From a virus: 64,000 nt of DNA. Below the pieces are notes generated by a model. The model was not told the origin of the DNA, ran no database searches, and saw only the letters and a list, made by a program, of their open reading frames with translations. The position numbers were made by a program, and so were the translations under genes. Location: the IMG/VR virus record IMGVR_UViG_3300037470_000856, positions 32,001 to 96,000 of that record; one strand, given 5' to 3'. Positions 2,109 to 25,788 of the stretch are shown piece after piece; the first letter of the stretch is position 1, and every line of letters begins with the position of its first letter.

Positions 2109-4703
2109 TCAAGCCCGGAACACCAGGAGCGGATCAGCTCTCGTGGCGCCGGATTTCAGCCTTCTCACCGGCATGTAGATGGTCGGCTCTACGCGGAAAC
2201 CAAGACGGGATGCTTCCCTGACCGCTTCGTCCGCGAGGACCACCCCATCGAGCGGCTTGGCGGGAAGGTTCAGGACGAGATGCGCCCCGAGCTTGAGACG
2301 GGCACGTGCCGTTTTCATCACCGGCACCAAGAACCCGGCGATCCACCTCGCAATGCTCCCGTACGATAATGCCTCGGCCGAGGCGCTCCCGTAGACCTCC
2401 AAGTCGAAGTAGGGAGGGGACGTGAAGACGAGGTCCAACGGACGACCAGGATCAAAAGTCTCCGCCCGGGCGCAAACAATCTCGCACCTGTCGACAACTT
2501 CAAGATCCCGGGCCAAGCGCAGGTTGCCCTCAACAGTCTGAGGTTCGACGTCGGTCCCGAGGTAAGTCCCCACCCCTGCAGCCATCGCCCCGAAAAGACG
2601 GCCACCATATCCTGCGCAAGGGTCCCACACGACGCCTCCGCGATCACCATAAGTTTGGCAGATGTACTTCGCCACCGCAGGCCGAAACACGGACGGCGTC
2701 CGGCACAGCATCTGGAGGGCCCGCAGCACGCGTGCTGGCGTCGTGGGGTGCCCCGCGTTGAGTTGCACTCGGACCGCGGCCCTAAGCCTGTCGTCGTCGT
2801 CCCATGCTTCCCGAACGCTACGCGCTTTCTTGTACCGGGCCTCGTAGCGATTCGGGAAGAAAGAGGCACACGCGATCGTGCCGCGCAAGGTGTACGGCCG
2901 CACGAATCCTTCCCCGTCAAGCCACACTTCCTGTTGACGCAACTTGGTGAACTCGGCCTTGGTCTTGGGTGACGGGAGGATATCAGGAAACCCTTGGGCC
3001 CTCAGCGTCTCCAGGATCTCCTCTACGTCCCGCACCTTGGCCTCTTCGCTCTTGTTGGCCCATAACGTGACATCGTTCCCAAGAAGTCTTTTCCAAAACC
3101 CTTGGTCGTGGATCGGATCGCTGTACCGCACGATTTTCACCGTGTACCCAATCTCCCGCGCGCGGGAGACCTTGAAGTCGTCAATCTCGCGGAGGCGCTC
3201 AAATTCTTCGTGGGTCTTGTGCCACGATTCGATGAAGTAAAAATGCTGCTCTCCGTGGGCCTCAATGATCAGGTTACGCGCCGGGAAATAGCCGTCAAAG
3301 TGAAATTTGCGCCCCGTTGCACCGTTCACAATTCTCGGGTCCGTCCACTCAGGTTCGTAGTGAACCCCCAAAAACGACGCCACCCCGTCCAGCACGGCCT
3401 TTTGCCAAGCGAGACGGCTCCGCGTTTTCAACCCGAGATCGGAACAGTTTCGGCGAATTTGCCACTGTGCGCAGCGGAAAGCCCTTGAAGCAGCAGCAGC
3501 GATGACTCGTCCTTTGTCATCCATGAAGGGACGGAGTTGCTCCGCCGTCAACACGAGTTTGTTGGTGGGGGGGAGCCGCTGTCCGGCTCGTAGTGCCGTC
3601 AGGGGGGCCTTCGGATGGTCCCGGCAATAACGTTCAAGGGTGTGCGCTGAACGGACGTGAGACGTGAGATTCTCCGCACGATGCCCGCACTCCCGGCACA
3701 TCACGAAGTCCTCCGGCTCGCTCTTTTCTCGCCACAGCACAAGGTCGTCCTCTGCCTTGCATTCCTCGCAGCGCAGATCGTGCAGTGAGCCCGCGAACAG
3801 AGACACCCGGACACCTTGTCCGCAGGTTGGACACGAAACCTCCTTGAGGGTCCCTTTCATGTAGTCGTTCGCTGCTCGGCCCTCTAACGAGCGCGCCAGT
3901 CGTGCCTGCTCAACCTTCTCAATGCGCCAGCGCACACCGGGCCACTTCGCCACGTAGACGGACGGAGTTGTCCTGTGCTCAGTCTTGAGGTGCTTCCACA
4001 AGTTCAGCGCACGATGTCCGCACTCCATGCAGACGACGTGGTTAATGCCCTCCTCGCCGAGTCGCTCCTGCTCACGCCGCTCACGCCATGCCCGGTGCTC
4101 GTCGTCTTTGGCGTGAGAAAAATGAGCGCCGAGTCCTCTCTGCCCTACGCACATCGTTCCGCACACGGGACAGGACGTGTCGGCTCCTCGATCCTTGAGG
4201 TCGCATGTCGTGCACAGAAACCTCGATCGCTTGGAGGCAGAGATGGCAGACACCTCCATCGGCTCCCCACATCCCTCACAGGGAACCTCGACGGTTCTGA
4301 TTTGTCTCGACTCCCTGGCGCGTGCCCGGTTGTTCTCAGTGGCTCTCACCGTCTGGAGTTCCCGTCCCCGCTCCCGAACCACATCACCGCCGTACACCTC
4401 CTCCCACCACGCCCGCACCTGCGTGTAGTGGACACCGAGGCGCTTCGCGACACCCTTCATCGGCTCACCCCTCTCAAAGGCCACGACGGCCTTGGCTTGA
4501 ACCGCAGAGTTCCCTGCGTTCCCCGTCTGCGCCTTGGCGAGTCCGCGAAGACGGTTGCCACGCTCTCGCACGGCATCACCGAACTCTTCCTTCCACACAC
4601 GGTAGACCCGATCACGACCCACGCCCACCCGCTTGGCCACGACGTTGGCAGCATCGTTGGAGCGGAAGGCGTCGAGGATCTGCGAGCGGACTTCAGGAGT
4701 CAC
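2109..4703 (-). CDS. HTH/zinc-finger + PD-(D/E)xK (Vsr/DUF559-like) endonuclease + amino-DNA methyltransferase fusion
   Basis: N-terminal HTHs; several CxxC/CxxC..H fingers; nuclease motif FHFDGYF...IIEAHGEQH; C-terminal MTase FRPAVAK..DPCAGYGGR..TSPPYF. Confidence 0.75.
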   Translation of the reverse strand: MTPEVRSQILDAFRSNDAANVVAKRVGVGRDRVYRVWKEEFGDAVRERGNRLRGLAKAQTGNAGNSAVQAKAVVAFERGEPMKGVAKRLGVHYTQVRAWWEEVYGGDVVRERGRELQTVRATENNRARARESRQIRTVEVPCEGCGEPMEVSAISASKRSRFLCTTCDLKDRGADTSCPVCGTMCVGQRGLGAHFSHAKDDEHRAWRERREQERLGEEGINHVVCMECGHRALNLWKHLKTEHRTTPSVYVAKWPGVRWRIEKVEQARLARSLEGRAANDYMKGTLKEVSCPTCGQGVRVSLFAGSLHDLRCEECKAEDDLVLWREKSEPEDFVMCRECGHRAENLTSHVRSAHTLERYCRDHPKAPLTALRAGQRLPPTNKLVLTAEQLRPFMDDKGRVIAAAASRAFRCAQWQIRRNCSDLGLKTRSRLAWQKAVLDGVASFLGVHYEPEWTDPRIVNGATGRKFHFDGYFPARNLIIEAHGEQHFYFIESWHKTHEEFERLREIDDFKVSRAREIGYTVKIVRYSDPIHDQGFWKRLLGNDVTLWANKSEEAKVRDVEEILETLRAQGFPDILPSPKTKAEFTKLRQQEVWLDGEGFVRPYTLRGTIACASFFPNRYEARYKKARSVREAWDDDDRLRAAVRVQLNAGHPTTPARVLRALQMLCRTPSVFRPAVAKYICQTYGDRGGVVWDPCAGYGGRLFGAMAAGVGTYLGTDVEPQTVEGNLRLARDLEVVDRCEIVCARAETFDPGRPLDLVFTSPPYFDLEVYGSASAEALSYGSIARWIAGFLVPVMKTARARLKLGAHLVLNLPAKPLDGVVLADEAVREASRLGFRVEPTIYMPVRRLKSGATRADPLLVFRA

Positions 4704-4747: not shown

Positions 4748-7700
4748 TCAACCTCCTAGGTTGGAGCGGAGGTTGAAGGTTATAACGATGTATAAAAGTG
4801 GAAAGACGGGCTGGTAGAACGCCTCCACCTCGACGACCGTCGGGTCGTTGGTGGTGCGCGCCTGGATGCCGGTGAACGCCGTGATGATCTCGGCGTTCTT
4901 GAGCGCCTTCATCGTCGTGGCGAGCTGTCCCTCGATCTCGGACAGGACTCCCGGCAGGAACTTGATGCCGATGAACCTGTCGAGGTCGCGCCGCGCGGCC
5001 CTCTGCACCTCGTCCGCGATGGTGATCACGGTCGGGAGCTTCGTGAGGATGTTGCTGATGTCCGTCGTCAAACCCTGGCGGATGCGGATGACGGTGCCGC
5101 TCTGGTCGAGCACGGTGACACCCTGGACAGCCACCTGGTTCTGCTCCACCGCGTCGAGGTTGCGCTGGAGTTGGTCGAACCCGACGATGCGAGCTCGCGT
5201 CCACGGGGTCGCCACGTCGATGTTCGGCCGCGCCCGGTCACCCGCGACCGCGGCCGCGAGGTAGGTCCCGTCGACCAGGAACTGCTTGTCGTTGCCGAGC
5301 GCGTCCTGGATGGTGACGGTCACGATGTCCGGGTAGACCAGGCGGATGCGGGTGTTGTGGATCTGGTTGGCGATCCCGCCCACGTCGCTCGGCTGCGTCC
5401 CCGACGACACCCCGATGATGGCCGTCCGCTCGGAGCGGTACCGGATACTCGACTGGATGTCGCAGTGGTTCTTGAGAGCCAGGAACAGGTCGACGTCGTC
5501 GCCCTTGAGCGGGGTGATGGTGTCGAGCGTCCCGCCGCCCGGAAGCGGCCCGCGCAGGTCGTTGAGCGCATCAAGGTACGACGGTGTGCTGGCCTGGTTG
5601 CTGCCCGGGATCTTCGGCACCTGCTTGATGCCGAGGACCACCGCGCCGTTCAGGAAACTGAGGAACGCCGCGAGAGAGACCGGGTTGTCCGGGCTGATTT
5701 CACCGTAATTGCGCTCCACGGCCCGCTGGTTCGTGAACAGCATCGTCTCGAAGTCGGCCTCGGTCTTCGTGTAGTTGTAGGTCACGAAGTAGCTGTCGCC
5801 GACCGCCGGCTCCTGGCCACCGCTCTCGAAGGTCTCGACGATCGCGGTGTCCCCCTGCGGGATGGTCGACCCCTCGGTGTTGGCCACCGTGAGCTCGAGG
5901 CCCGGGATCGAGTTGGCCGGGAGGTTGGCGTCAGTGGTGACGAGTTTGCGCACCTCGAAGGTGAACCAGGCCCCGGCCCCGGTCGGGTAGTCCGCCCCGC
6001 CCTGACGCTCGAGGATCGTGAACACGAGCCCCGTCTTGGTGTCGCGGTAGGTCTGCCCGATGACGCCGTCCTGGCCCACGCCGTTGTTGAGACACGAGGT
6101 GTCCACCGAGCCCGACCCGTCGATCGGATCGGAGCTCGTGACGTAGAAGCCCTGGAAGCCGCTCTCGCCGGACGCTCCGTCGCCGGAGGCCACGTCGAGG
6201 CCGGTTCCCGTGAGCAGCCACGAGGCCGTGCTCGCGTTCAGGAACGAGATGTTCGAGGACGCCCCCAAGCCGACGATGTTGTTGGCCTGCGACTGAACGA
6301 ACAGGAACTCGTTGTTCGCCGAGTCCACCATCTTGCCCGCGAGGGCCTGGTCGGCGAAGAACGTGGTGTCCGGGCTCTGGTAGTCCAGGAGCGCCCCGTT
6401 GACTGTCGTGCTGTGGTGCATCATCAGCGCCGAGGCGACCTTCTCCACCTCGACCAGAGACCGCGCGGCCGTGGCCCCCTCGGAGAACCCGAGGACGTCG
6501 TTGGCGTTGCCGTCGTTGATCGTCACCGCGGAGCTGGTGTCGGACAGGCTCGAGACGAGGCGGATGCCCGCGCCCTCCTGCACGACCGAGTCGGCGGGCA
6601 ACCCCGCTCCGACGCACGCAGTCTGGATCTGACGCAACACCGTGTTCGGGCTCGTCACCGGGCCGAGCGGCACGAGCGCCTCTCCGGCCGCCGGGATCGC
6701 GGCTCCGGTTCCGTCCGTGACGACAACCGTCACCGGGGTCCCGTCGATGTTGAACTTGAACACGTTGTTGCGCGGGTTTAGGCCGCTCGCCCCGTAGAAC
6801 TGCACCGCGGGCTGACCGTCACGGTCGTCACCGTAGGTGCCCGAGGCGACCTGGCCGTCCTTGAACCCGACCTCGCCGAAGAGGCTGGCGGGGCGGATGG
6901 TCGCCTCGATGTCCGCCTGCCCGAAGGCCTTGGCCGACAGGCCGGTGAACGCGGAGGCGTTGGTCCCCTCGACGACCAGGGAGGTCTGCGCGACCTGGCT
7001 CTCGGGCCGGATTGACCCGGATCCCGGGACGACGCGGTTGCGCATGAGGATGCGGTCGTAGAGGAGGCGACCCGAGGAGCCGGCCACGGTGAACCGACGG
7101 GCGATGTCGCCGTCGATGACCTTGGTCTGCTCCTGGCTCGGAAGCGCGTCCGTGGACAGGCCCGCGAGCACCGCGAAGTCCTCGCCGACCGACGATGCGT
7201 CGATGAACTCGAATACGCCGCCGCCGAGGCCGGTGCCGCCCGTGAGGGTGGACGCCGACACGGGGAGACGCACCCCGCTGCTCGAGGACAGGTCGATGAA
7301 GTTGCCGCTCGGCCCGGGGACGGCCGCCGTGAGATCCACGGTGGATGATGTGCCCGAGGTGTTGTCGGCCGTGACGAGCGCGTCGAGCCCGTTGAGGGGG
7401 TCGGTGGTCGCCGTGACGATAGTCGTCGCGACGCCCACGTCGGTGAGGCCCCCGCCGAAGGTCGCTCCCGAGACGGGGAGGCGCACGCCGGGCGAACTCA
7501 TGAGCAGGACGCCGTTCGCCCCCACGCCCGGGATGTTCGCCCACACGGTGACCGTGGTGGACGTGCCACCCTCGTTGTTCGCCGTGAGGTACAGCGCCAG
7601 GCCGTTGCCGGGATCGTTGATCGCGGCGACGATAGAGGTGGCCACCGACAGGTTGGTACCGACGCCTCCCTGGAGGGTGAGGGCCGACATGAGCAGGCGA

Positions 7701-10700
7701 GTCGCGCTCGAGCTCGTGGTGTCGATGATGTTGCCCGCGTTTCCGGGGGTGACCGCGGTCATCGTGACCCCGCTGCCCACCGCCATGGCGGTGACCGTGA
7801 CGCTGATGCCGTTGCCGGCGTCGTTGATCGCCGCGGCGATGGAGGCCGCCACCGTGGTGTTGTCGCCCACGCCGCCGAGCAGCGTGCCGCCCGACAGGAC
7901 AATGCGCGCCGCCGCGGTGGTGCTGAGAGTGATGCCGTCGCCGACGATTCCCGGGGTGAACGCGTCGATGGTGACCACGTTCGAGGTGCCGCCGACGTTG
8001 CTCGCGACCACGAGGGTCAGGCCGTTGGCCAGGTCGGTGATGGCCGCCACGAGGCTCGTCGCCACCGAGATGTCGTCGCCCACGCCACCGAGCAGCGTGC
8101 CGCCCGACAAGACGAAGCGTCCCGCCGCGGTGGTGCTGAGGGTGATGAAGTTGCCGACGATTCCCGGGATGACCGCCGTGAGATTCACAGTGGTGCCCAC
8201 GACGACCGCGCTGACGTCGCCGTCGAACGAGTTCGCCACGTCGTTGATGGCCGCCGCGGCGTCCGTGGCCGCGGTCGCGTCGGTCCCGACGCCGCCCATG
8301 AGGGTGGCCGCGCCGAAGGTGAGTCGAACTGGCGCCGTGGAGACGGTGCTGATCGAGTCGCCCGCGACTCCGGGGGTGATGGCCCGGATGTCGACCACCG
8401 CCGAGGCGCCACCCGTGTTGTGGGCCTGCACGGTGCCCGTGAGTCCGTTGAGCGGGTCGAGGATCGCCGCGACGATGGCCGTCGCGGTGGCGATCTCGTC
8501 GCCCACGCCGCCGCCGAAGCCCCCGGTGGTGGTCACGGTGCCGTCCGAACTCATGTTCGTGACGACGTTGGCGAACGATCCGGGGACCGTCCAGGGCAGC
8601 GTCACGTCCGAGGGCCCAGGCCCCACCGCCGCGGACATAAACGTCGAGAAGGAGTTGGCCGGGTCGTTGAGGGCCGCCGCGATCTCGGCGGCGATGGCCG
8701 CCGTGGTGCCGAGCGTCTCGTCGTAGTCGTTCGCGCCCGGAGTGCGGGGGCCGCCCGCGGGAGAGAGCGGGAATGGACCGCCGTTGGCGCCACCCGAATC
8801 GATTGTAATCGTGGCGGAGGCCGGCGCGGCCATCACAATAAGCGTGTCGATCGCCTGGATGCCGGCGTTGAAATTGAGGCCGCCGGGGGTGGTGACGTCG
8901 TCAGCCGTGAGGGCGATGCCCGCGATGATGAGGGTGTCGCCGTACAAGACACCCGTGCTTGGGCCGAGCGAGTCGGCCACGACGGTCAGCATGCCAAGGG
9001 ACCGCGTGCCCGCGTCGAAGTCGTCCGCGCCTGGGGTGCGGGCGCCCTCGACCGGGGTCAGCACGTTGCCGTTGATCGCGGTGGTGTCCGCCGCGACGAC
9101 GGGCCACGGGCCGGCCGAGACCGCCCGCACGCCCATCGTCATGAAGTCACCGGTGGCCGCGGTACCGACGTTGAAGTCCATGCCGCCCGGGGTCAGCGTG
9201 TTGCTGGCCGTCAGGGTGACCGGACCTCCACCCACCACCGAGGTGTCGATGGTGATCGTGTCGCCGTACTGGACGCCGGTGAGCGTCGCCGAACCGGTCG
9301 AGCGGGTGCCCTCGTCGAAGTTGAGACCGCCCGGGGTCTGCGCACCCAGGGCCGTCAGGGTGATGCCGTCGACGGTGACCGTGTCGTTCGGGATCGGGCC
9401 CGAGACGGTGAGGGTGCCCGTCGCCTGGGTGCCCTCGTTGAAATTAATGCCGCCCGGGGTCTGAGCGCCGGTCGCCGTGATGAGCACGGGACCGCCGCCG
9501 AGCACGGTGGTGTCGATGGTGAAGGTGTCACCCGGTTCTACGCTCATCGGGATGAGCGTCCCTCGAGCCTGGCCCGTGTCGTAGTTCAGGCCGCCCGCGG
9601 TGACGCCCAGCTCGCCCGTGAGAGTGATGCCCCCGATGGTGATGGTGTCGCCCACGATCGATCCGACGTTGGTCACGGTGCCCGTGGCGAAGGTGCCGAG
9701 GTCCGTGTCCGCACCGGTGAAGGTGAAGCGCATCTGGCCGTCCGCGTTCGCGCTGCAGACGATGTCGATGCCGTCGAAAGAGGCCGGGAGGGCCGCGATC
9801 GCGGTGTCGAGCGCCGAGTTGACCGCGGCCGCCATGGTGGAGGGCGACAGGTAGATTCCCGGGGCGATAGTCGCCGTGACGGGGCCCGTCGAGCCGTTGG
9901 TGACGCCCATGTAGTTGAAGACGAGCTGGTCGTACTCGCCCGCCGTCATGACGGTCGCCCCGAGGAACCGCGTCGTGCCGTCCAGGAAGGGAGCGTTGGC
10001 GACGAGTTTGGCGTCGGCGTTGATGGCCTCGACGTAGGCGTCGGCGTCGACGCCCGTCTGCGAGGGCACCGTCACGGTGAGGACCACTCCATCCACGGTC
10101 ATCGCCACGGTGTCATTGATGCCCGAGAGGATGTCGTAGGTCGTCTTACCCGAGTCGTCGGTGTAGGCGATCTCGTCGCCGAGCAGGCTCGCGCTGAACC
10201 CGAGACCCTGCACCCCGTGCGGGGCGGACAGGTCGATGCCCGCAGCTCCGCCCGCCAGCACCGCGCTGTCCACGAGGAAACGCGCGCGGTCGGACTCGCC
10301 GGTCACGAAGGCGTAAGGACCCGCGCCATCGACCGTGAACTTGGCGATGGTGGCGTCCTCGTCCGCGAAGGTGACGGTGACCGTCTCCTCGACGGGACCG
10401 TCCGTGCCACCCTCGAAGTGCACGTCCGGCGTGAGCTCGGAGCCCGAGGGGAACTGCACGGTGACGCCGGTCATGGCCGGCCCCTTCACGCCGAAGTTCG
10501 GCGTGAAAATCGGGTTTCCGTTCGAGTCGAACAGGAAGTAGTTGCCGATGCCCGAGGGTCCGGAGGTCTCGACCGTGACGGTGTACTCCTCGTCGACGAG
10601 GATGTTGTAGTAGAAGGTCGCCCACACATCGGCGCCCACGGGCACCGGGTCCTTGAGGGTGATCTCCGTGCCGTTGACCGCCGTGACGGCGACCGCTCCG

Positions 10701-12190
10701 CGCTGGACAGCGTCCTGGAGGCCAAAGCCCCAGTACGCCTTCACCAGGTTAGGGTTGTTGGTCGGGAGGTCGATGCGGTTGTTCGAGAGCGACAGGAAGA
10801 CGTTCTGGCCGAGCGGGTTGTTGCGCCCGTTGCCCGTGGTGGGCTGAGTCGGCAGCGTGAACTTCGTCCGGTCCTCCACCGGAGGTGTCACGGCATCGTT
10901 GACGACGGGCTCCGTCGGCGCCAGAAACCAGCGGTTGTCGACGAGCAGACCGCTGATCTGAGTCGGGCCGAAGGGCGGAGCACCGGGCGTGGTGACGCCC
11001 GGGTTCACGAGGAACGCGGTGCCCCAGACGATGAGGTCGTCCTTGAGGACGAAGTCGGCGTCTTCGATGAAGTCGTTGTTGCCGGGGACGATGCCGCAGC
11101 GCAGGACCTCGGTGACGTTGATGTTCGCGAGGTAGTCGAACGTGTCCTGCCAGGAATTGAAGAAGTACTGGATCGTAACACTCTCGCCGACGCCCGGGGC
11201 GAAGGGGAGCACGACCGCGCGGTTCTGGCCGTCGACCTCGGTCGGGATGACCTGCGTGCCGTCGACGCGGACGGTCACCTTCGAGGTATCCATCGTGGTG
11301 ATGCCGCCGTTGGTGCCGTCCACGATCGGCCCGTTGAAGACGTAGAACGTCCTGTTGCGGTTCGTGTCCTGGCCGTTGGTGAACCCGAGCACCACGTTGA
11401 CGGTGCCCGCGAGGATGCGAATGGCTCGGTCCGCCACAAGACGCACGGCGGTGAGCCCGAAGTTGTTCGTGTAGGTCGAGGCCACCAGGGAAGTGGCCGA
11501 CGCAGCACCGTTGATGAGGGAGACGACCGTGGCCGCGCTCACGCTGCCCGTGGGGAAGGTGACCGAGATCTCCTGGTTCTGGTCGTCGTCGACCCGGAAG
11601 TTGAACTCGTTGGTGTCGACGGTGAACTCGTAAGTGTTCCCGATGGCGCCGTCGAGCACGGCCGACTGAGGCGTGACCTGGTCCGACACGGTGTCGGTGA
11701 TCTGCGTGTCCGTGCGCTTGAAGAAGTAAGTGACGCGGACGTCGTCGCCCAGAACCGGGGCCGTGCTGATCTCGATGACACCGATGTTGGCGCGCGCAAC
11801 GCTCAGGACTACGTCGGGCTGTCCGTTGATCGTCACGAAGATCGAACTGGGATCGGTGGCGATGGTGCCGCTCCCGTCACCGTTGGTGATCGGGTAGTTG
11901 CGGACCTGGATGCGCCGGCGCTCTCCGTTGAAGTTGCCGAGCGTGACCTCGCCCGTCTGGCTGATGCTCACGACGGCGCGACCGGTCTCGTCCTCCTGGG
12001 GGACCTGCTGGTCCACCGACGAGCTCGAGCCACGGAGGACCTCAAGGCTCTGCTGCTGGAGAAGTTCGTTGCCCGTCCCGATCATGACCGGGATGCGCAC
12101 ACCTGCGAGGACACCCGAGACCGGGTTGTCGAATTTTGTGCGGGTGTAGACGCCAGGGGGGCTGTAAATGGTACCCGGAAAATTTGCCAC
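4748..12190 (-). CDS. Giant tail sheath protein with large internal insertions
   Basis: N-terminal YSPPGVYT motif and C-terminal sheath domain (ERTAIIG...IRIRQGLTT...FIGIK...FYQPVFPLLYIVITFNL) of contractile sheaths; 2480 aa. Confidence 0.9.
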   Translation of the reverse strand: MANFPGTIYSPPGVYTRTKFDNPVSGVLAGVRIPVMIGTGNELLQQQSLEVLRGSSSSVDQQVPQEDETGRAVVSISQTGEVTLGNFNGERRRIQVRNYPITNGDGSGTIATDPSSIFVTINGQPDVVLSVARANIGVIEISTAPVLGDDVRVTYFFKRTDTQITDTVSDQVTPQSAVLDGAIGNTYEFTVDTNEFNFRVDDDQNQEISVTFPTGSVSAATVVSLINGAASATSLVASTYTNNFGLTAVRLVADRAIRILAGTVNVVLGFTNGQDTNRNRTFYVFNGPIVDGTNGGITTMDTSKVTVRVDGTQVIPTEVDGQNRAVVLPFAPGVGESVTIQYFFNSWQDTFDYLANINVTEVLRCGIVPGNNDFIEDADFVLKDDLIVWGTAFLVNPGVTTPGAPPFGPTQISGLLVDNRWFLAPTEPVVNDAVTPPVEDRTKFTLPTQPTTGNGRNNPLGQNVFLSLSNNRIDLPTNNPNLVKAYWGFGLQDAVQRGAVAVTAVNGTEITLKDPVPVGADVWATFYYNILVDEEYTVTVETSGPSGIGNYFLFDSNGNPIFTPNFGVKGPAMTGVTVQFPSGSELTPDVHFEGGTDGPVEETVTVTFADEDATIAKFTVDGAGPYAFVTGESDRARFLVDSAVLAGGAAGIDLSAPHGVQGLGFSASLLGDEIAYTDDSGKTTYDILSGINDTVAMTVDGVVLTVTVPSQTGVDADAYVEAINADAKLVANAPFLDGTTRFLGATVMTAGEYDQLVFNYMGVTNGSTGPVTATIAPGIYLSPSTMAAAVNSALDTAIAALPASFDGIDIVCSANADGQMRFTFTGADTDLGTFATGTVTNVGSIVGDTITIGGITLTGELGVTAGGLNYDTGQARGTLIPMSVEPGDTFTIDTTVLGGGPVLITATGAQTPGGINFNEGTQATGTLTVSGPIPNDTVTVDGITLTALGAQTPGGLNFDEGTRSTGSATLTGVQYGDTITIDTSVVGGGPVTLTASNTLTPGGMDFNVGTAATGDFMTMGVRAVSAGPWPVVAADTTAINGNVLTPVEGARTPGADDFDAGTRSLGMLTVVADSLGPSTGVLYGDTLIIAGIALTADDVTTPGGLNFNAGIQAIDTLIVMAAPASATITIDSGGANGGPFPLSPAGGPRTPGANDYDETLGTTAAIAAEIAAALNDPANSFSTFMSAAVGPGPSDVTLPWTVPGSFANVVTNMSSDGTVTTTGGFGGGVGDEIATATAIVAAILDPLNGLTGTVQAHNTGGASAVVDIRAITPGVAGDSISTVSTAPVRLTFGAATLMGGVGTDATAATDAAAAINDVANSFDGDVSAVVVGTTVNLTAVIPGIVGNFITLSTTAAGRFVLSGGTLLGGVGDDISVATSLVAAITDLANGLTLVVASNVGGTSNVVTIDAFTPGIVGDGITLSTTAAARIVLSGGTLLGGVGDNTTVAASIAAAINDAGNGISVTVTAMAVGSGVTMTAVTPGNAGNIIDTTSSSATRLLMSALTLQGGVGTNLSVATSIVAAINDPGNGLALYLTANNEGGTSTTVTVWANIPGVGANGVLLMSSPGVRLPVSGATFGGGLTDVGVATTIVTATTDPLNGLDALVTADNTSGTSSTVDLTAAVPGPSGNFIDLSSSSGVRLPVSASTLTGGTGLGGGVFEFIDASSVGEDFAVLAGLSTDALPSQEQTKVIDGDIARRFTVAGSSGRLLYDRILMRNRVVPGSGSIRPESQVAQTSLVVEGTNASAFTGLSAKAFGQADIEATIRPASLFGEVGFKDGQVASGTYGDDRDGQPAVQFYGASGLNPRNNVFKFNIDGTPVTVVVTDGTGAAIPAAGEALVPLGPVTSPNTVLRQIQTACVGAGLPADSVVQEGAGIRLVSSLSDTSSAVTINDGNANDVLGFSEGATAARSLVEVEKVASALMMHHSTTVNGALLDYQSPDTTFFADQALAGKMVDSANNEFLFVQSQANNIVGLGASSNISFLNASTASWLLTGTGLDVASGDGASGESGFQGFYVTSSDPIDGSGSVDTSCLNNGVGQDGVIGQTYRDTKTGLVFTILERQGGADYPTGAGAWFTFEVRKLVTTDANLPANSIPGLELTVANTEGSTIPQGDTAIVETFESGGQEPAVGDSYFVTYNYTKTEADFETMLFTNQRAVERNYGEISPDNPVSLAAFLSFLNGAVVLGIKQVPKIPGSNQASTPSYLDALNDLRGPLPGGGTLDTITPLKGDDVDLFLALKNHCDIQSSIRYRSERTAIIGVSSGTQPSDVGGIANQIHNTRIRLVYPDIVTVTIQDALGNDKQFLVDGTYLAAAVAGDRARPNIDVATPWTRARIVGFDQLQRNLDAVEQNQVAVQGVTVLDQSGTVIRIRQGLTTDISNILTKLPTVITIADEVQRAARRDLDRFIGIKFLPGVLSEIEGQLATTMKALKNAEIITAFTGIQARTTNDPTVVEVEAFYQPVFPLLYIVITFNLRSNLGG

Positions 12191-14883: not shown

Positions 14884-15939
14884 TTAGTCCCCGGAGCCGC
14901 CGAACGCCTCGTTGAGTGTCGCGGCGATGGATTCCCGGTCCGGCATCTCGTCCTCTTGGTGCGTCTCGCAGAGTCCCCACCGGAAGCAGCCACCACCGGG
15001 GGGAAGCTGCGCCAGACGCACCTTGTGGCCCTTCCGATCGGTCCGGGCCCAGTCCACCACTTCGTCAATCTTCGCAGAGCCCTTTGAGCTGTTGCGCTCG
15101 ATGACCGCCTCAAAGAAGGCCGGGTTCTCCTTGCCGTAGCGGCCGGGCTGCTCCTCGTTGCGGCGACTCCGGATCGCGTGGAAGAGAGTCTCGAGTTCGC
15201 GGACCATTTCGATGTGCTCGGGCGCGAGCTTTGCGATGAGGGCGATCTCGTCCTTGCGCGCGAGGATGCACGGGTAGCAGCCGACGCGGTTGTGCCCCAT
15301 CGTGTAGAGCGGGTTCACGGGGATGTCGTGGCGCTGGTGAATGCGAAGCACGTCGTCGGTACGCCAGTGGTGGATCGGGAGCCACATTTGGCCGTCCCAC
15401 TGCGAGTCGAAGTACCACCGCTCCTTCGCGGCTCGAGACACGCTCTCCTCGGCGCGCACGCCGATGACGTTGACCGTGTCGAGGTCGGTCTCCTCCTGCA
15501 CTCTGAGGTGATAGTTCTTGATCGGGCGCAGCTTGTACTCGATCGTGCACCACCGTCCGATGCGAAGAGGCGACCCTCCCCGGTACAGCATCCCGCGGGG
15601 GAGCGCGCCGAATTTGCGGCCGAGCCTCTTCTCCGCGGCCTCGACGAGTTCCTCAGCCCACGGCTCGAGCTCGGGAGGCGTCGTGCCGACCACGGCCACG
15701 TCGAGCCCGAGTTTCTCGGAGATCTCGTGCACGTAGTCGACGGTGCTGTCGGCCTCCCACCCCGTGTCGGCGAAGACGTGCCTCGCCTCGATGCCGTGCT
15801 CGATCAGGGCGAGCGCGGTGGCGACCGAGTCCTTCCCCCCGCTGAACGAGACGATGGGCTGGTAGTCGGTGAGGTCTGGGACGAAGGAGAGGTCGGTCTT
15901 GGTTTCCGTCCACAGGGAGAGACCGTCGGACTTGCTCAC
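14884..15939 (-). CDS. PAPS/APS reductase family protein
   Basis: SFSGGKDS PP-loop, ADTGWE, WCT..YK, GVRAEES..R, RVGCYPC. Confidence 0.85.
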   Translation of the reverse strand: MSKSDGLSLWTETKTDLSFVPDLTDYQPIVSFSGGKDSVATALALIEHGIEARHVFADTGWEADSTVDYVHEISEKLGLDVAVVGTTPPELEPWAEELVEAAEKRLGRKFGALPRGMLYRGGSPLRIGRWCTIEYKLRPIKNYHLRVQEETDLDTVNVIGVRAEESVSRAAKERWYFDSQWDGQMWLPIHHWRTDDVLRIHQRHDIPVNPLYTMGHNRVGCYPCILARKDEIALIAKLAPEHIEMVRELETLFHAIRSRRNEEQPGRYGKENPAFFEAVIERNSSKGSAKIDEVVDWARTDRKGHKVRLAQLPPGGGCFRWGLCETHQEDEMPDRESIAATLNEAFGGSGD

Positions 15940-16949
15940 TCGTCCTCGTATTCCTGCAAGGCCTGGACGAGCAGGCCCCGCGCGACCGCGTCGAGCGGCT
16001 CACGGGCCGCGCGAACCTCCGACACCTCGATCGGAAACTTCCTCTTCTTCTGCTCGAAGACCTGCTGGAAGAACTCAAGGAAGCCCCCGGCCTTGCTCGT
16101 GCCGCCCGAGATGACAATCGGGATCGGGTTGGGCAGTGCGAACTTGTTCTGGATCTTGACGAACTCCTTGGCGACGTTGTCGAGCGCGTACTCGATCAAC
16201 GCCTTGTAGTACACGCAGAGCGCCTCCTCGTCGCGGCTCTGCGGGTGCACGAGATTGAGCCCCTTCTCCTTGAGAGAGCACATGCGGGCCTGCGTCGAGC
16301 CAACAGACTTCGCCGCGCCCGCGTCGATCCAGTCTCCTCCGCGCGCCACCGAGAAACTCAGCCCCTCGATGGTGTTGATGGCGAGTGTCACGTTCGTCAT
16401 GCCCGACCCGAACGAGAAGGCGATGCCGCTGAACACATCCTTCGCGCACTCGGAGTAGATGATGGCCAGCGCCTCGTTGCTCGGGAAGGGACGGTATCCA
16501 CACTCGCTCACGATACGCTCGAGGACGCCGCGGTGGTACACAATGTCGCGAGACGGGTCGTCGACGGGAGCCGCGGGCACGGAGAAGTAACAGATCTCGT
16601 TCTCCTCCTTCGGCTCGCCCAGGACGTGTCGCACGAGGACGCCGAGGATTTCGAGCGCGTCGATCTCCCCGGCCGCGACAAGCCCCGACTGGAGCGGACG
16701 ACGGACCTCCCTGCTCATCATGTTCGCCATGTCGTAGGCGGCGTCCCCCACGACGATGAGGTCGTTCTCCTTCTCGATGTAGTTCACGCCCGACAGCCGC
16801 AGCATCTTGCGGTTCTCGGCAGGCAGGTCGAGGAAGGCGTCACGGATACGGTTCGTGACTACGCCCTTCTTGGTGCGCCTCGCGGCCACGATGTTCATCG
16901 TGCCCATGTCGAGGCCAACGCCCAGGGTCAAAACTTCTTCTTCGGTCAT
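15936..16949 (-). CDS. Actin-like (MreB/FtsA/ParM superfamily) ATPase
   Basis: GLDMGT (phosphate 1), NEA, SFGSGMT (phosphate 2), GGDWID and ISGGT (adenosine) actin-fold motifs. Confidence 0.8.
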   Translation of the reverse strand: MTEEEVLTLGVGLDMGTMNIVAARRTKKGVVTNRIRDAFLDLPAENRKMLRLSGVNYIEKENDLIVVGDAAYDMANMMSREVRRPLQSGLVAAGEIDALEILGVLVRHVLGEPKEENEICYFSVPAAPVDDPSRDIVYHRGVLERIVSECGYRPFPSNEALAIIYSECAKDVFSGIAFSFGSGMTNVTLAINTIEGLSFSVARGGDWIDAGAAKSVGSTQARMCSLKEKGLNLVHPQSRDEEALCVYYKALIEYALDNVAKEFVKIQNKFALPNPIPIVISGGTSKAGGFLEFFQQVFEQKKRKFPIEVSEVRAAREPLDAVARGLLVQALQEYEDE

Positions 16950-23394: not shown

Positions 23395-24069
23395 CTAGAC
23401 GTACAGGGTGCCATCTTCGGCGTAGACCGTGACGGCCTGCTGCTCGACGTCGAGGTACGTGAAGTTCGGGTCCTTGAGCAGCGACACGTTCCCGTTCAGG
23501 TGCGAGCACTTGAACTGGCCGATGTCATAGAGCTGCTTGTAGGTCCCCTCCACGAAGTCCCCGACCGGGCCGATGAACGCTCCACCGCCGTCGGACAGTG
23601 CGGTGCCCGACGAGACGAGATACACATTGCCGGCCAGAATGCTCAGCAGCTCGGTGAGGACGCCCGTCGAACCTCCAGCCGTGAGGGAGGCTCCACCCAC
23701 GACGCCGCCGATGACGGCGTTCACGGCCGCCAGGTTGAGAGCCGTGCCTCCTCCGGGGTCCGCCTGCGTGATGGCCAGGAGACCCGCCGCGATGGCGTCC
23801 GCGTCGGCCGCGGTGATCGTCGCGCCGCCGTCGTCGATGTTGCCGAGCATGTACGCCCCGACCCCGTAGAGGTCCGCCATGGCGACCACGGGCGGACCCG
23901 TGTCCACGCTGCCCGCCATGAGCGGCGCCGGGATGTTGTGGATGTACCCCGTCTGACCGAGTCCCGGCGGGTAGATGTAGTTCTTGCTCGAGGTGTTCGG
24001 CCAGAGGTCGACGACCTGGAGTTCCCCGTCGGGGATGTCGGTCCGGTTCATGATGAGAAAGACTTGCAT
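23395..24069 (-). CDS. Virion structural protein, paralogue 3
   Basis: MQVFLIMNRTDIPDGELQVVDLWPNTSSKNY..PPG.GQ N-terminus shared with the two upstream genes. Confidence 0.65.
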   Translation of the reverse strand: MQVFLIMNRTDIPDGELQVVDLWPNTSSKNYIYPPGLGQTGYIHNIPAPLMAGSVDTGPPVVAMADLYGVGAYMLGNIDDGGATITAADADAIAAGLLAITQADPGGGTALNLAAVNAVIGGVVGGASLTAGGSTGVLTELLSILAGNVYLVSSGTALSDGGGAFIGPVGDFVEGTYKQLYDIGQFKCSHLNGNVSLLKDPNFTYLDVEQQAVTVYAEDGTLYV

Positions 24070-24081
24070 CGTCCTTGTCTC

Positions 24082-25110
24082 CTACGGGGTGAAGAAGGTC
24101 CCGTCGTCGTTGTAAACGACGACCGCCTCGCCGTTGGGGTCACCAGCCACGCCGGCGTAGACGAAGCTGTTCGCGGTGAACGCGGAGAGCTCACCCATGA
24201 CGAACGACAGTGGCAGGCCGTCGTTGAGGAAGAGCGCCCGGTTGCCACTCAACGAACTGACCGGGGGGCTCACGACGTGGAAACCGCCCGCGTCCGCGAC
24301 CTGCGTGCCGGCCGGGAGCGTGAACTTGGCCCCGGCGAGCATGTTGAGCAATTCGGCGAGCGATGTTGTGTCGAGGACGGCCCCCACGAGGAGGCCGTTG
24401 ACGGTGGCGAGATCCAGGACGCCCGCGGCCGACGTCAAGTCTCCGAAAGCGAGTTGACCGAGCGTTGCCGCGGCACTCGCGTTCGCGTCCGCGGCCGTGA
24501 TGGCCGACGCGTCCACGCCGCCCGCCATCGCCGCGGACACCGAGAGGTTGGCGCCCACCTCGGAGAGGAGGATGCTGTTGCCGGCGGTCCCGGCCGTCAC
24601 CGCCGTGATGTCGATGTCCACCGGAGCAGCACCCCCCGGCGTTGCCGCGGTGACGTAGGGGCTCAGGCCGTTCAGCGGGTTGTTGATCGTATTGACCAAG
24701 TTGGTCGCCGAGTCGGCTTCGGTGGCACCCACGAGCACGTCCGTCGTCGCGACCGGAGCCGCGCTGAACGTGAAGGTGACCGAGGGGCCCCCCACCACCG
24801 TGGCGTTGATGGTGGCCGTGTCGCCGGGAGCGACGTTGCCCGCCGCGATCTGGAACTGCCCGGTCGCGGCGACGGCCGTGCCGTCGTTGGTGCGCGCGAG
24901 GAACCAGGCCGACAGCCCGGAGTACGTGCGGAAGGACGTGACGGGGCCCGCGCCGAGCGTGATGACCGTCTCGTTGTCGACCGCGTTGACGTACTTGGTC
25001 TGACCAGGGGCGTCGAGGGTGTAGTTCCGCTGCGACGTGTTGGGCTCCATGTCGAGGATCTGGAGCGTCCCATCGGGGATGTCGCTGCGCTTCATGATGA
25101 TGTACGGCAT
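24082..25110 (-). CDS. Virion structural protein, paralogue 2 (carries a sheath-type inserted domain)
   Basis: MPYIIMKRSDIPDGTLQILDMEPNTSQRNYTLDAPGQ, plus an internal ATG...GDT...TAVTAGTAGNSI...AGG domain. Confidence 0.65.
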   Translation of the reverse strand: MPYIIMKRSDIPDGTLQILDMEPNTSQRNYTLDAPGQTKYVNAVDNETVITLGAGPVTSFRTYSGLSAWFLARTNDGTAVAATGQFQIAAGNVAPGDTATINATVVGGPSVTFTFSAAPVATTDVLVGATEADSATNLVNTINNPLNGLSPYVTAATPGGAAPVDIDITAVTAGTAGNSILLSEVGANLSVSAAMAGGVDASAITAADANASAAATLGQLAFGDLTSAAGVLDLATVNGLLVGAVLDTTSLAELLNMLAGAKFTLPAGTQVADAGGFHVVSPPVSSLSGNRALFLNDGLPLSFVMGELSAFTANSFVYAGVAGDPNGEAVVVYNDDGTFFTP

Positions 25111-25122
25111 CGGTCGATCTCC

Positions 25123-25788
25123 TTACAGGACGGTTCCGTCGTCGGCGAGAACGAGGATGGCCGGCCCGAACACGCCGTTGTACTCGAAACCCACCTGCTT
25201 GTAGTTGAAGAGGTCACCTGCGCCGTTGCTGACGTTGAAGGCGCCCGTCGCCAGGATGTTCTTCACGCCCGGCGTCGTGGCGAAGAAACCCTGACGAACC
25301 GGGTTGAAGGCATTGGCGCCGTCCTCGACCTCGGAGCCGGCCGGCAGTTGGTATTCCGCGCCAGAGAGGATGAAGAGGAGTTCGGAGAGCATGCCCGTCG
25401 AGGCGCCCGCCTCGAGGCTGGTGCCCGCCGTGGCTCCGGCCGCGACGAGCGCGGCGTCCACGTCGGTCAGGGTCAGCGTGAAACCGCCCACCGCTCGGGC
25501 GATGATGGTCGCCGCCGCCGCATTGGCCACCGCCGCCGTGATCGCGGTGCCCGAGGAGTCCTCGACGTTGTCGATCAGGTAGGCCGCGAGCCCGCAGGCG
25601 TCACGCACCGTGAGGATTGGACCCGCTCCCGTCGTGATGACGGTGTCGCTGACCGGGATCTGGCGCACGTACCCGCTCTGACCTGGAGGATCGAGCGTGT
25701 AGTTGCGCTGAGAGTCGTTCGGCTTGAGGTCGATGATCTCGAGCACCCCGTTCGGGATGTCGGCGCGACGCATGATGATGTACGGCAT
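25123..25788 (-). CDS. Virion structural protein, paralogue 1
   Basis: MPYIIMRRADIPNGVLEIIDLKPNDSQRNYTLDPPGQ; ends in DDGTVL, like the other two. Confidence 0.65.
   Translation of the reverse strand: MPYIIMRRADIPNGVLEIIDLKPNDSQRNYTLDPPGQSGYVRQIPVSDTVITTGAGPILTVRDACGLAAYLIDNVEDSSGTAITAAVANAAAATIIARAVGGFTLTLTDVDAALVAAGATAGTSLEAGASTGMLSELLFILSGAEYQLPAGSEVEDGANAFNPVRQGFFATTPGVKNILATGAFNVSNGAGDLFNYKQVGFEYNGVFGPAILVLADDGTVL

What the first reader, a model, noticed from the sequence alone, without database searches (positions are those of the whole stretch)
7235..9691. Matryoshka (7+7 nested) domain insertion in the tail sheath
Seen: the sheath has seven consecutive half-repeats of type A (ATGT.T...GDT.TI.G..LT....TPGG.NF..G), followed after a pivot near 8715 by seven half-repeats of type B (A..I.AAI.D..NG....A....V.ITA..PG..GN.I.LS......L..SG.TL.GG). 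The intact A+B unit occurs once, contiguously, in the 342-aa protein (~24515-24870). The order A1..A7 B..B, rather than (AB)n, implies each domain is inserted in a loop of the previous one. Inference: the chain runs out and back, forming a 7-domain stalk on every sheath subunit, i.e. integral sheath fibres built by recursive insertion.
Basis: partly seen in the sequence, partly recalled or inferred. Interest (0 to 1): 0.82.

Follow-up and report, generated by a model that had tools for sequence, protein, structure and literature searches.

The report
Seven-deep nested domains in phage sheath
The 2,480-residue tail-sheath protein of an uncultured giant phage carries seven copies of one small surface domain, each inserted inside the previous one like Russian dolls, so every sheath subunit probably bears an out-and-back arm; nesting is known in sheaths and flagellins, but I found no paper showing one domain repeated this deep.

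Summary
Confirmed. The ORF at 4748-12190 (-) is a contractile tail sheath of a jumbo phage. It holds seven A halves, then seven B halves (aa 834-1652). All 45 sheaths of its clade have A7B7.

The register is nested (Ai pairs with B8-i):
- AlphaFold2 (pLDDT 91.6) pairs A7-B1 through A2-B6.
- ESMFold2 pairs A1-B7 and A2-B6 as separate chains (0.80, best control 0.00).
- The mirror-tree test ranks the nested order first of 5040.
- One motif pair sits at positions summing to n+1 in 11 natural proteins with n = 3, 4 or 7.

The unit has the outer-domain fold of known sheaths, FliD and flagellin D2 (Z 10.8-12). It sits in a further nested parent domain. Other phage proteins carry 2, 3, 4 or 5 levels. 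The family of the 342-aa protein includes a 5+5 form, and a second split point gives up to 9 levels.

Not shown: that the arm is an extended fibre, or what it does. Russian-doll sheaths and a two-level self-insertion of a FliD-D2-like domain (Geovibrio flagellin) are published, so this is a new variant. This scan already reported the A7B7 sheath in other genomes.

The parts
4748..12190 (-). Tail sheath gene, 2480 aa, about 253 kDa
4748..5800 (-). Conserved sheath core, C-terminal part (aa 2131-2480)
   Evidence: tblastn to phage G gp178 and Tunturi_5 sheath; PF17482 E 0.008; Atlas sheath clusters 0.95
9572..9691 (-). A1 (aa 834-873), N-half of layer 1 (base); pairs with B7
9431..9571 (-). A2 (aa 874-920), layer 2; pairs with B6
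9308..9430 (-). A3 (aa 921-961), layer 3; pairs with B5
9164..9307 (-). A4 (aa 962-1009), layer 4; pairs with B4
9008..9163 (-). A5 (aa 1010-1061), layer 5, with a ~10-aa loop insertion; pairs with B3
8861..9007 (-). A6 (aa 1062-1110), layer 6; pairs with B2
8507..8860 (-). A7+B1 (aa 1111-1228): the only contiguous domain, tip of the nest
   Evidence: Z 10.8 to 8kee residues 91-185
8291..8500 (-). B2 (aa 1231-1300), C-half of layer 6
8084..8284 (-). B3 (aa 1303-1369), C-half of layer 5
7871..8077 (-). B4 (aa 1372-1440), C-half of layer 4
7664..7864 (-). B5 (aa 1443-1509), C-half of layer 3
7448..7657 (-). B6 (aa 1512-1581), C-half of layer 2
7235..7444 (-). B7 (aa 1583-1652), C-half of layer 1 (base)
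9692..9964 (-). N-part of the parent domain that hosts the nest (about aa 743-833)
   Evidence: model of single-unit relative P0047: ranges 199/215-455/458 close around the unit at 299-416 (mapped)
7103..7234 (-). C-part of the parent domain (about aa 1653-1696)
24517..24873 (-). Single contiguous A+B unit (aa 80-198) in the 342-aa protein (24082-25110). Family member P0213 has a 5+5 nest at the same site

Best explanation
This is the contractile tail sheath of a jumbo phage (IMG/VR record, 31% complete at 141 kb; a relative's contig is 619 kb). A ~115-aa alpha/beta surface domain has been inserted repeatedly into its own loop between the fourth strand and the helix. The fold is that of the outer domain of many sheaths and of FliD/flagellin D2. 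The chain runs out through A1-A7 and back through B1-B7, giving seven domains Ai+B(8-i) joined by short two-stranded linkers. SHOWN (by models plus natural sequences; probability about 0.95): the nested register, the fold, and that the nest sits in a parent domain itself inserted in further outer domains. INFERRED from known sheaths (about 0.9): it lies on the outside of the tail and is not needed for contraction, since about 44 relatives lack the unit. INFERRED (about 0.55-0.6): it forms a projecting arm of roughly 20-25 nm (my estimate, about 3-3.5 nm per domain) on every subunit, a bottle-brush tail. The most likely job is weak multivalent adhesion to, or spacing and shielding from, cell-surface polymers and particles. 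The arm is acidic (59 D/E vs 13 K/R) and varies most at its tip. INFERRED origin: the nest grows and swaps as a cassette by recombination with two out-of-register crossovers, one in the A arm and one in the B arm. That adds or replaces whole A+B layers in one step and keeps the counts equal.
For: AlphaFold2 on 45 clade sequences: pLDDT 91.6. Small single-domain PDB chains align to model ranges 283-401, 234-475, 183-544, 135-614, 95-684 and 46-757, which are exactly A7B1, A6B2, A5B3, A4B4, A3B5 and A2B6; no range corresponds to another A-B pairing. ESMFold2 on A1A2 plus B6B7 as separate chains: score 0.80, best control 0.00, runs agree in 99% of contacts, partner pLDDT at least 91, contacts A2-B6 and A1-B7. 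The mark was reached by 58 of 80 solved and 2 of 110 mismatched pairs, and split halves tend to pass by likeness. Mirror-tree test: nested order 1st of 5040, parallel 4606th; 36 of the top 50 gap-free covarying A-B pairs fall in nested blocks against about 7 expected. A diagnostic A motif and B motif co-occur in 11 proteins at indices 5+3 (n=7), 2+3 (n=4) and 2+2 (n=3), always n+1. Balanced nests of depth 2, 3, 4 and 5 occur in other proteins. Conservation falls from base to tip and the halves track each other in nested order (r 0.86, rank 49/5040). DNA shows two-layer periodicity on both arms. The inner four layers of one subclade match the 4-nest of the P0123 family layer by layer. Extra sheath domains lie away from the tube (PMC9230969; PMC6088184).
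Against: No experimental structure and no cultured member. pTM 0.52 leaves the long-range shape open, and I could not measure coordinates. The covariation tests use the same 45 related sequences that both predictors saw and are confounded by ancestry. The similarity-matrix test (rank 41/5040) rests largely on A7 and B1 both being outliers. No function was tested. Some distant small proteins give unbalanced profile patterns (for example AABBB), probably missed weak A halves but not checked one by one.
Confidence: 0.8

Rival explanations
1. The nesting is right, but the arm is not a free fibre. It curls or lies along the tail and contacts arms of neighbouring subunits, forming a second shell or lattice that stiffens or armours the sheath.
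For: In Geovibrio flagellin the self-nested D4/D5 pair bends up or down and dimerises between subunits (PMC11532411). Extra sheath domains have been proposed to cement the tail (PMC9230969). Depth is fixed at exactly seven in 45 sheaths down to 48% identity in the arm, which suggests a geometric constraint. pTM 0.52 does not fix the shape.
Against: The arm is strongly acidic and has no cysteine, which disfavours dense self-packing. Its tip is the least conserved part (55-59% vs 60-72% in layers 1-4). Close relatives carry one unit or none at the same site.
Confidence: 0.33
2. The halves pair between different sheath subunits (domain swapping), knitting the sheath together, rather than within one chain.
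For: The halves can associate as separate chains in a model. Sheath subunits are densely packed.
Against: A7+B1 is contiguous and seeds an intramolecular zipper, and the linkers are only 2-4 residues. The same nests occur in non-sheath proteins. The monomer model is complete at pLDDT above 90.
Confidence: 0.04
3. A and B are two independent tandem repeat arrays (or pair in parallel order), and the 7+7 count is coincidence.
For: The sequence alone allows it; the two arrays could have expanded by separate tandem duplications.
Against: A and B are the two halves of one solved fold (Z 10.8-12.0 to 8kee). The parallel order ranks 3352, 4633 and 4606 of 5040 in three tests. The motif-index rule holds in 11 of 11 proteins. 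Counts are balanced at n = 1, 2, 3, 4, 5 and 7.
Confidence: 0.02
4. The nest is neutral baggage from a domain that inserts easily. It has no selected function and may be trimmed by a protease in the virion.
For: The module also turns up in unrelated proteins, including a 2+2 nest inside a methyltransferase-like fold (P0126). Many sheath relatives lack it.
Against: It adds 79 kDa to a protein made in hundreds of copies (copy number from general knowledge), and it is kept intact at 7+7 across a clade with 55-72% mean identity per layer.
Confidence: 0.08

Closest known systems
'Russian doll' sheath architecture (T4 gp18, diffocin CD1363, DSY3957; PMC6088184) and type-3 multi-domain sheaths (Evseev 2022, PMC9230969)
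   Same: Sheath core made of N- and C-terminal parts; extra outer domains inserted one in another, some formed by an outgoing and a returning stretch of chain.
   Different: There the nested domains are few (3-4, '5+' at most) and are not described as copies of one domain. The longest of 153 listed sheaths is 1283 aa. Here seven homologous copies are self-nested in a 2480-aa protein, on top of the ordinary nesting.
Outer domain of cyanophage A-1(L) sheath (8kee, residues 91-185), PhiTE (9cb9), Mu (9khy), Bas63, Sf14, Milano and E217 sheaths
   Same: Same fold as one A+B unit (Z 10.8, rmsd 2.3 over 93 aa in the nest; Z 12.0, rmsd 1.9 over 93 aa in the single-unit relative).
   Different: Each of those chains matched over one domain only; none matched as a repeated nest.
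Geovibrio thiophilus flagellin D4/D5 (9au6; PMC11532411), FliD D2/D3 and P. aeruginosa FliC D2 (4nx9)
   Same: The paper states that D5 is a duplication of D4 inserted in one of its loops, that D4 is related to FliD D2, and that the outer surface is acidic. The unit matches FliC D2 (Z 7.8-9.0) and FliD (Z 7-8.4).
   Different: Two levels rather than seven; flagellar rather than phage. The match to 9au6 itself is weak (Z 4.3-5.2).
Bacillus phage G gp178 and Tunturiibacter phage Tunturi_5 sheaths
   Same: Closest cultured sheath cores (28% and 31%). Tunturi_5 is a myovirus with a contractile tail (PMC11924767).
   Different: They are much shorter, and the unit itself found no match among GenBank phages by tblastn.
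'Hairy' jumbo myoviruses (CBB, Y3; PMC5259590, PMC13282480)
   Same: Fibres along the contractile tail: the appearance this sheath might give.
   Different: The passages read do not attribute those hairs to the sheath chain, and no homology was tested.

Membership tests
Contractile tail sheath proteins | C-terminal core homologous to known sheaths | tested here: met
   tblastn to annotated sheaths, E 1e-48 to 1e-9; Atlas 0.95 with 178 shared features; PF17482 only E 0.008, below cut-off
Contractile tail sheath proteins | Encoded in a tailed-phage structural region with a tube gene | tested here: inconclusive
   The record is an IMG/VR virus, 31% complete, with 7 tRNAs. No tube, capsid or terminase gene was identified by Pfam or PHROGs among the ORFs tested
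Contractile tail sheath proteins | Polymerises around the tube and contracts | not testable with these tools
   Uncultured phage
Russian-doll (type 3) sheaths | Extra domains formed by outgoing and returning chain, inserted one in another | tested here: met
   Nest ranges; parent ranges 215-455 and 34-856 in the single-unit relative
Russian-doll (type 3) sheaths | Extra domains point away from the tube | not tested
   The full-length protein exceeds the folding limit; inferred from PMC9230969 and PMC6088184
Sheath outer / FliD-D2 / flagellin-D2 alpha-beta domain | Fold | tested here: met
   Z 10.8-12.0 to 8kee, 9-10 to 9cb9, 7.8-9.0 to 4nx9
Sheath outer / FliD-D2 / flagellin-D2 alpha-beta domain | Sequence-level family match | tested here: inconclusive
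   No Pfam or PDB sequence hit for the unit; identity in the structural alignments up to about 29%
Self-nested duplication as in G. thiophilus flagellin D4/D5 | A copy of a domain inserted in a loop of itself | tested here: met
Self-nested duplication as in G. thiophilus flagellin D4/D5 | Same insertion loop, and dimer contacts between subunits | not tested
Tail fibres (trimeric receptor-binding fibres) | Separate trimeric protein with a receptor-binding tip | tested here: not met
   The arm is part of the sheath chain, folds as a monomer, and its tip is another copy of the same domain

The most novel reading that the evidence does not exclude
These megaphages use a self-inserting domain cassette as a general way to build arms of adjustable length. 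The cassette nests through either of two loops (depths 2-7 by one, up to 9 by the other) and moves as whole multi-layer blocks between the sheath and other virion genes. In this clade it gives every sheath subunit a covalent ~20-25 nm bristle: a bottle-brush contractile tail whose fibres are the sheath chain itself.
Probability: 0.45. Interest if true: 0.75.

Novelty: new variant of a known kind. Interest (0 to 1): 0.56.

Why it matters
It is a clean natural case of recursive domain self-insertion: a folded structure with six long-range half-domain pairings, the outermost spanning about 800 residues. Natural variants at depths 1, 2, 3, 4, 5 and 7 make it directly testable how such proteins fold (presumably zipping from the tip) and how nests grow by recombination. 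It nearly doubles the longest sheath in the one published survey I checked (1283 aa) and predicts a distinctive tail shape for an uncultured megaphage clade. A domain that tolerates repeated self-insertion is also a ready scaffold for two-stranded protein spacers. The principle (Russian-doll sheaths, two-level self-nesting in flagellin) is already known, which limits the surprise.

Tried and rejected
1. Pfam, PHROGs and PDB sequence searches of the whole protein or the repeat region gave nothing useful.
2. Foldseek against viral models gave only unnamed or weak hits.
3. Collapse of the nest to one domain: P0047, a single-unit sheath, falls inside the A7B7 clade. Its unit does not score best against A1 and B7 and resembles other single units, so cassette replacement is as likely. 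Unresolved.
4. 'ABBBB'-type proteins first looked like unequal counts. They have a matching run of first strands ahead of the units (9+9 in P0189, 4+4 in four others, 2+2 in P0141), so they nest through a different loop.
5. Tandem (AB)2 and (AB)5 sheaths are not intermediates of this nest: they insert about 10 residues downstream, at a second site.
6. No sheath with a nest depth between 2 and 6 was found among proteins of 1364-4340 aa.
8. Literature searches found no paper describing a self-nest of this depth; the library is incomplete.
9. The function of the 221/342/224-aa paralogues stayed unknown.
Full report
Observation. The finding lies in a 2480-aa ORF at 4748-12190 on the minus strand. 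Profiles built from the repeats find seven consecutive A halves (aa 834-1160; 40-52 aa each) and then seven consecutive B halves (aa 1162-1652; 67-70 aa each). They also find one contiguous A+B unit at aa 80-198 of the 342-aa ORF at 24082-25110. The DNA copies are diverged, and 44 homologues at 56-83% identity share the order, so this is neither chance nor misassembly.

What the protein is. The C-terminal ~390 aa match annotated tail sheaths: Tunturi_5 at E 1e-48, phage G gp178 at E 2e-25, and many actinophage sheaths. The ESM Atlas neighbours are sheath clusters. PF17482 matches weakly over nearly its full length. The record is an IMG/VR virus of 141 kb judged 31% complete; a relative's contig is 618,736 bp. 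At 253 kDa it is about twice the longest sheath in the survey of PMC9230969 (1283 aa).

Nesting: structure models. AlphaFold2 on aa 828-1660 with 45 clade sequences gave pLDDT 91.6 and pTM 0.52. Coordinates are not returned, so I read the topology from where single-domain PDB chains align. The ranges are 283-401, 234-475, 183-544, 135-614, 95-684 and 46-757, each with only about 60-100 aligned residues. These are A7+B1, A6+B2, A5+B3, A4+B4, A3+B5 and A2+B6. The last pair was tested with ESMFold2, giving A1A2 and B6B7 as separate chains. The score was 0.80 against 0.00 for the best control, the runs agree in 99% of contacts, and partner pLDDT was at least 91. The best contacts are A2-B6 and A1-B7, although the crossed register was open to the model. 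That mark was reached by 58 of 80 solved and 2 of 110 mismatched pairs, and split halves tend to pass by likeness. The register, not the pass, is the information.

Nesting: natural sequences. (i) Mirror-tree test across the clade: the reverse order ranks 1st of 5040 pairings, the parallel order 4606th. (ii) 36 of the top 50 gap-free covarying A-B column pairs fall in nested blocks, against about 7 expected. (iii) Per-half conservation correlates in nested order (r 0.86, rank 49/5040) and falls from base to tip. (iv) The similarity matrices of A and B agree in reverse order (rank 41/5040) and not in parallel (3352). Tests i-iv share the same related sequences and are not independent of each other. 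(v) The cleanest test: an A half with the motif G[AM]YNF and a B half with LN[VI]P occur together in 11 proteins and never apart. Their indices are 5+3 in seven 7-deep sheaths, 2+3 in two 4-deep proteins and 2+2 in two 3-deep proteins. The sum is always n+1, as nesting requires.

Counts in relatives. At this region, sheath homologues have nothing (44), one AB (about 29), ABAB (1), (AB)5 (3) or A7B7 (45). The tandem forms use a second site about 10 residues downstream. Other phage proteins have balanced nests of 2+2, 3+3 and 4+4 (P0123 family and others). P0213, a member of the 342-aa protein's family (44.5% identity over the flanks, similar gene context), has 5+5 where the window's protein has one unit. 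Proteins that looked unbalanced, such as P0189, nest through the loop after the first strand instead: 9 first strands, then 9 remainders. Self-nesting is therefore a habit of this domain, not a one-off.

Fold and position. The unit has the fold of the outer domain of cyanophage A-1(L), PhiTE, Mu and Bas63 sheaths, of FliC D2 and FliD D2/D3, and of parts of T4 gp11 and T7-like tail proteins (Z 10.8 best in the nest, 12.0 in a single-unit relative). A model of the single-unit relative P0047 (pLDDT 93.3, pTM 0.86) shows the unit inside a parent domain (aa ~743-833 plus ~1653-1696 of the window's protein). That parent is itself enclosed by an FlgL-like domain (aa ~562 to ~2093). So the seven layers continue an existing Russian-doll hierarchy. 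Published sheaths place such domains away from the tube.

How it probably works. Shown: topology and fold. Inferred: folding starts at the contiguous tip A7B1 and zips back to the base. The short two-stranded linkers give a semi-rigid arm, by my estimate 20-25 nm, on each subunit. The core does the contracting, since many relatives lack the unit. The arm has 59 acidic and 13 basic residues, no cysteine, and a variable tip. That fits weak multivalent adhesion or shielding. The main rival is an arm that bends and links neighbours into a second shell, as the nested D4/D5 pair does in Geovibrio flagella. For origin, one recombination event with a misregistered crossover in each arm would add or swap whole layers while keeping the counts equal. 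Three observations fit this: two-layer periodicity in the DNA of both arms, A and B halves of a layer changing together in subclades, and layers 4-7 of sheaths P0039-P0044 matching the four layers of P0123/P0212 in order (some B matches are near ties). This is inference.

Comparison and novelty. 'Russian doll' insertion is the textbook description of sheaths (PMC6088184). Out-and-back domains are described in PMC9230969. A FliD-D2-like domain inserted into its own copy is solved in G. thiophilus flagellin (PMC11532411). I found no paper on seven-fold self-nesting. Earlier notes of this scan report the A7B7 sheath in other genomes, and nests of 4, 8 and 9 levels in other phage proteins. These are unchecked AI notes and are not counted as support. 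Verdict: real, well supported, a new and extreme variant of a known kind. The fibre shape and the function remain untested. Interest 0.56.

Noticed in passing
P0189, P0223, P0244, P0273, P0308, P0141: A second self-nesting mode of the same domain through the loop after its first strand: n first strands in a row, then n remainders (9+9, 4+4, 2+2).
   Followed up: partly
P0126, P0129, P0218-P0220, P0222: A 2+2 nest inserted just after the SAM-binding motif of a methyltransferase-like protein of about 510 aa; possibly a virion protein derived from an enzyme.
   Followed up: partly
window 23395-25788 (-); L028: Three tandem paralogues (221, 342, 224 aa) of unknown function. Only the middle one has the unit here; in L028 the third carries a 5+5 nest.
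   Followed up: partly
P0123 family, L025:3221-4786: Small proteins that are almost only a nest (2+2, 3+3, 4+4). The P0123 gene lies near ribonucleotide reductase and RecD2 genes. P0214 (3+3) and P0215 (2+2) both have a longest contig of 259,001 bp, so they may share a genome.
   Followed up: partly
P0074, P0083, P0087, P0089: Sheaths with tandem (AB)2 or (AB)5 at a neighbouring site: the same domain makes a loop of beads instead of a nest.
   Followed up: partly
L027:10001-15319 (P0047): A single-unit sheath placed inside the A7B7 clade, suggesting that the whole arm was replaced or lost.
   Followed up: partly
genome C1 114353-115960 (-), outside the window: A 536-aa protein with one divergent unit inserted in what looks like a beta-helix or pectinesterase-like fibre protein.
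   Followed up: no
window 4748-4822: The last 25 codons of the sheath gene have GC3 0.60 against 0.86-0.94 in the rest, next to an 864-aa HTH/ROS-MUCR/HNH/methyltransferase-like ORF (2109-4703).
   Followed up: partly
window 15936-16949 and 14884-15939 (-): A Volactin (PF25216, E 1e-73) gene and a PAPS-reductase-domain gene upstream of the sheath; Volactin is also upstream in L027.
   Followed up: no
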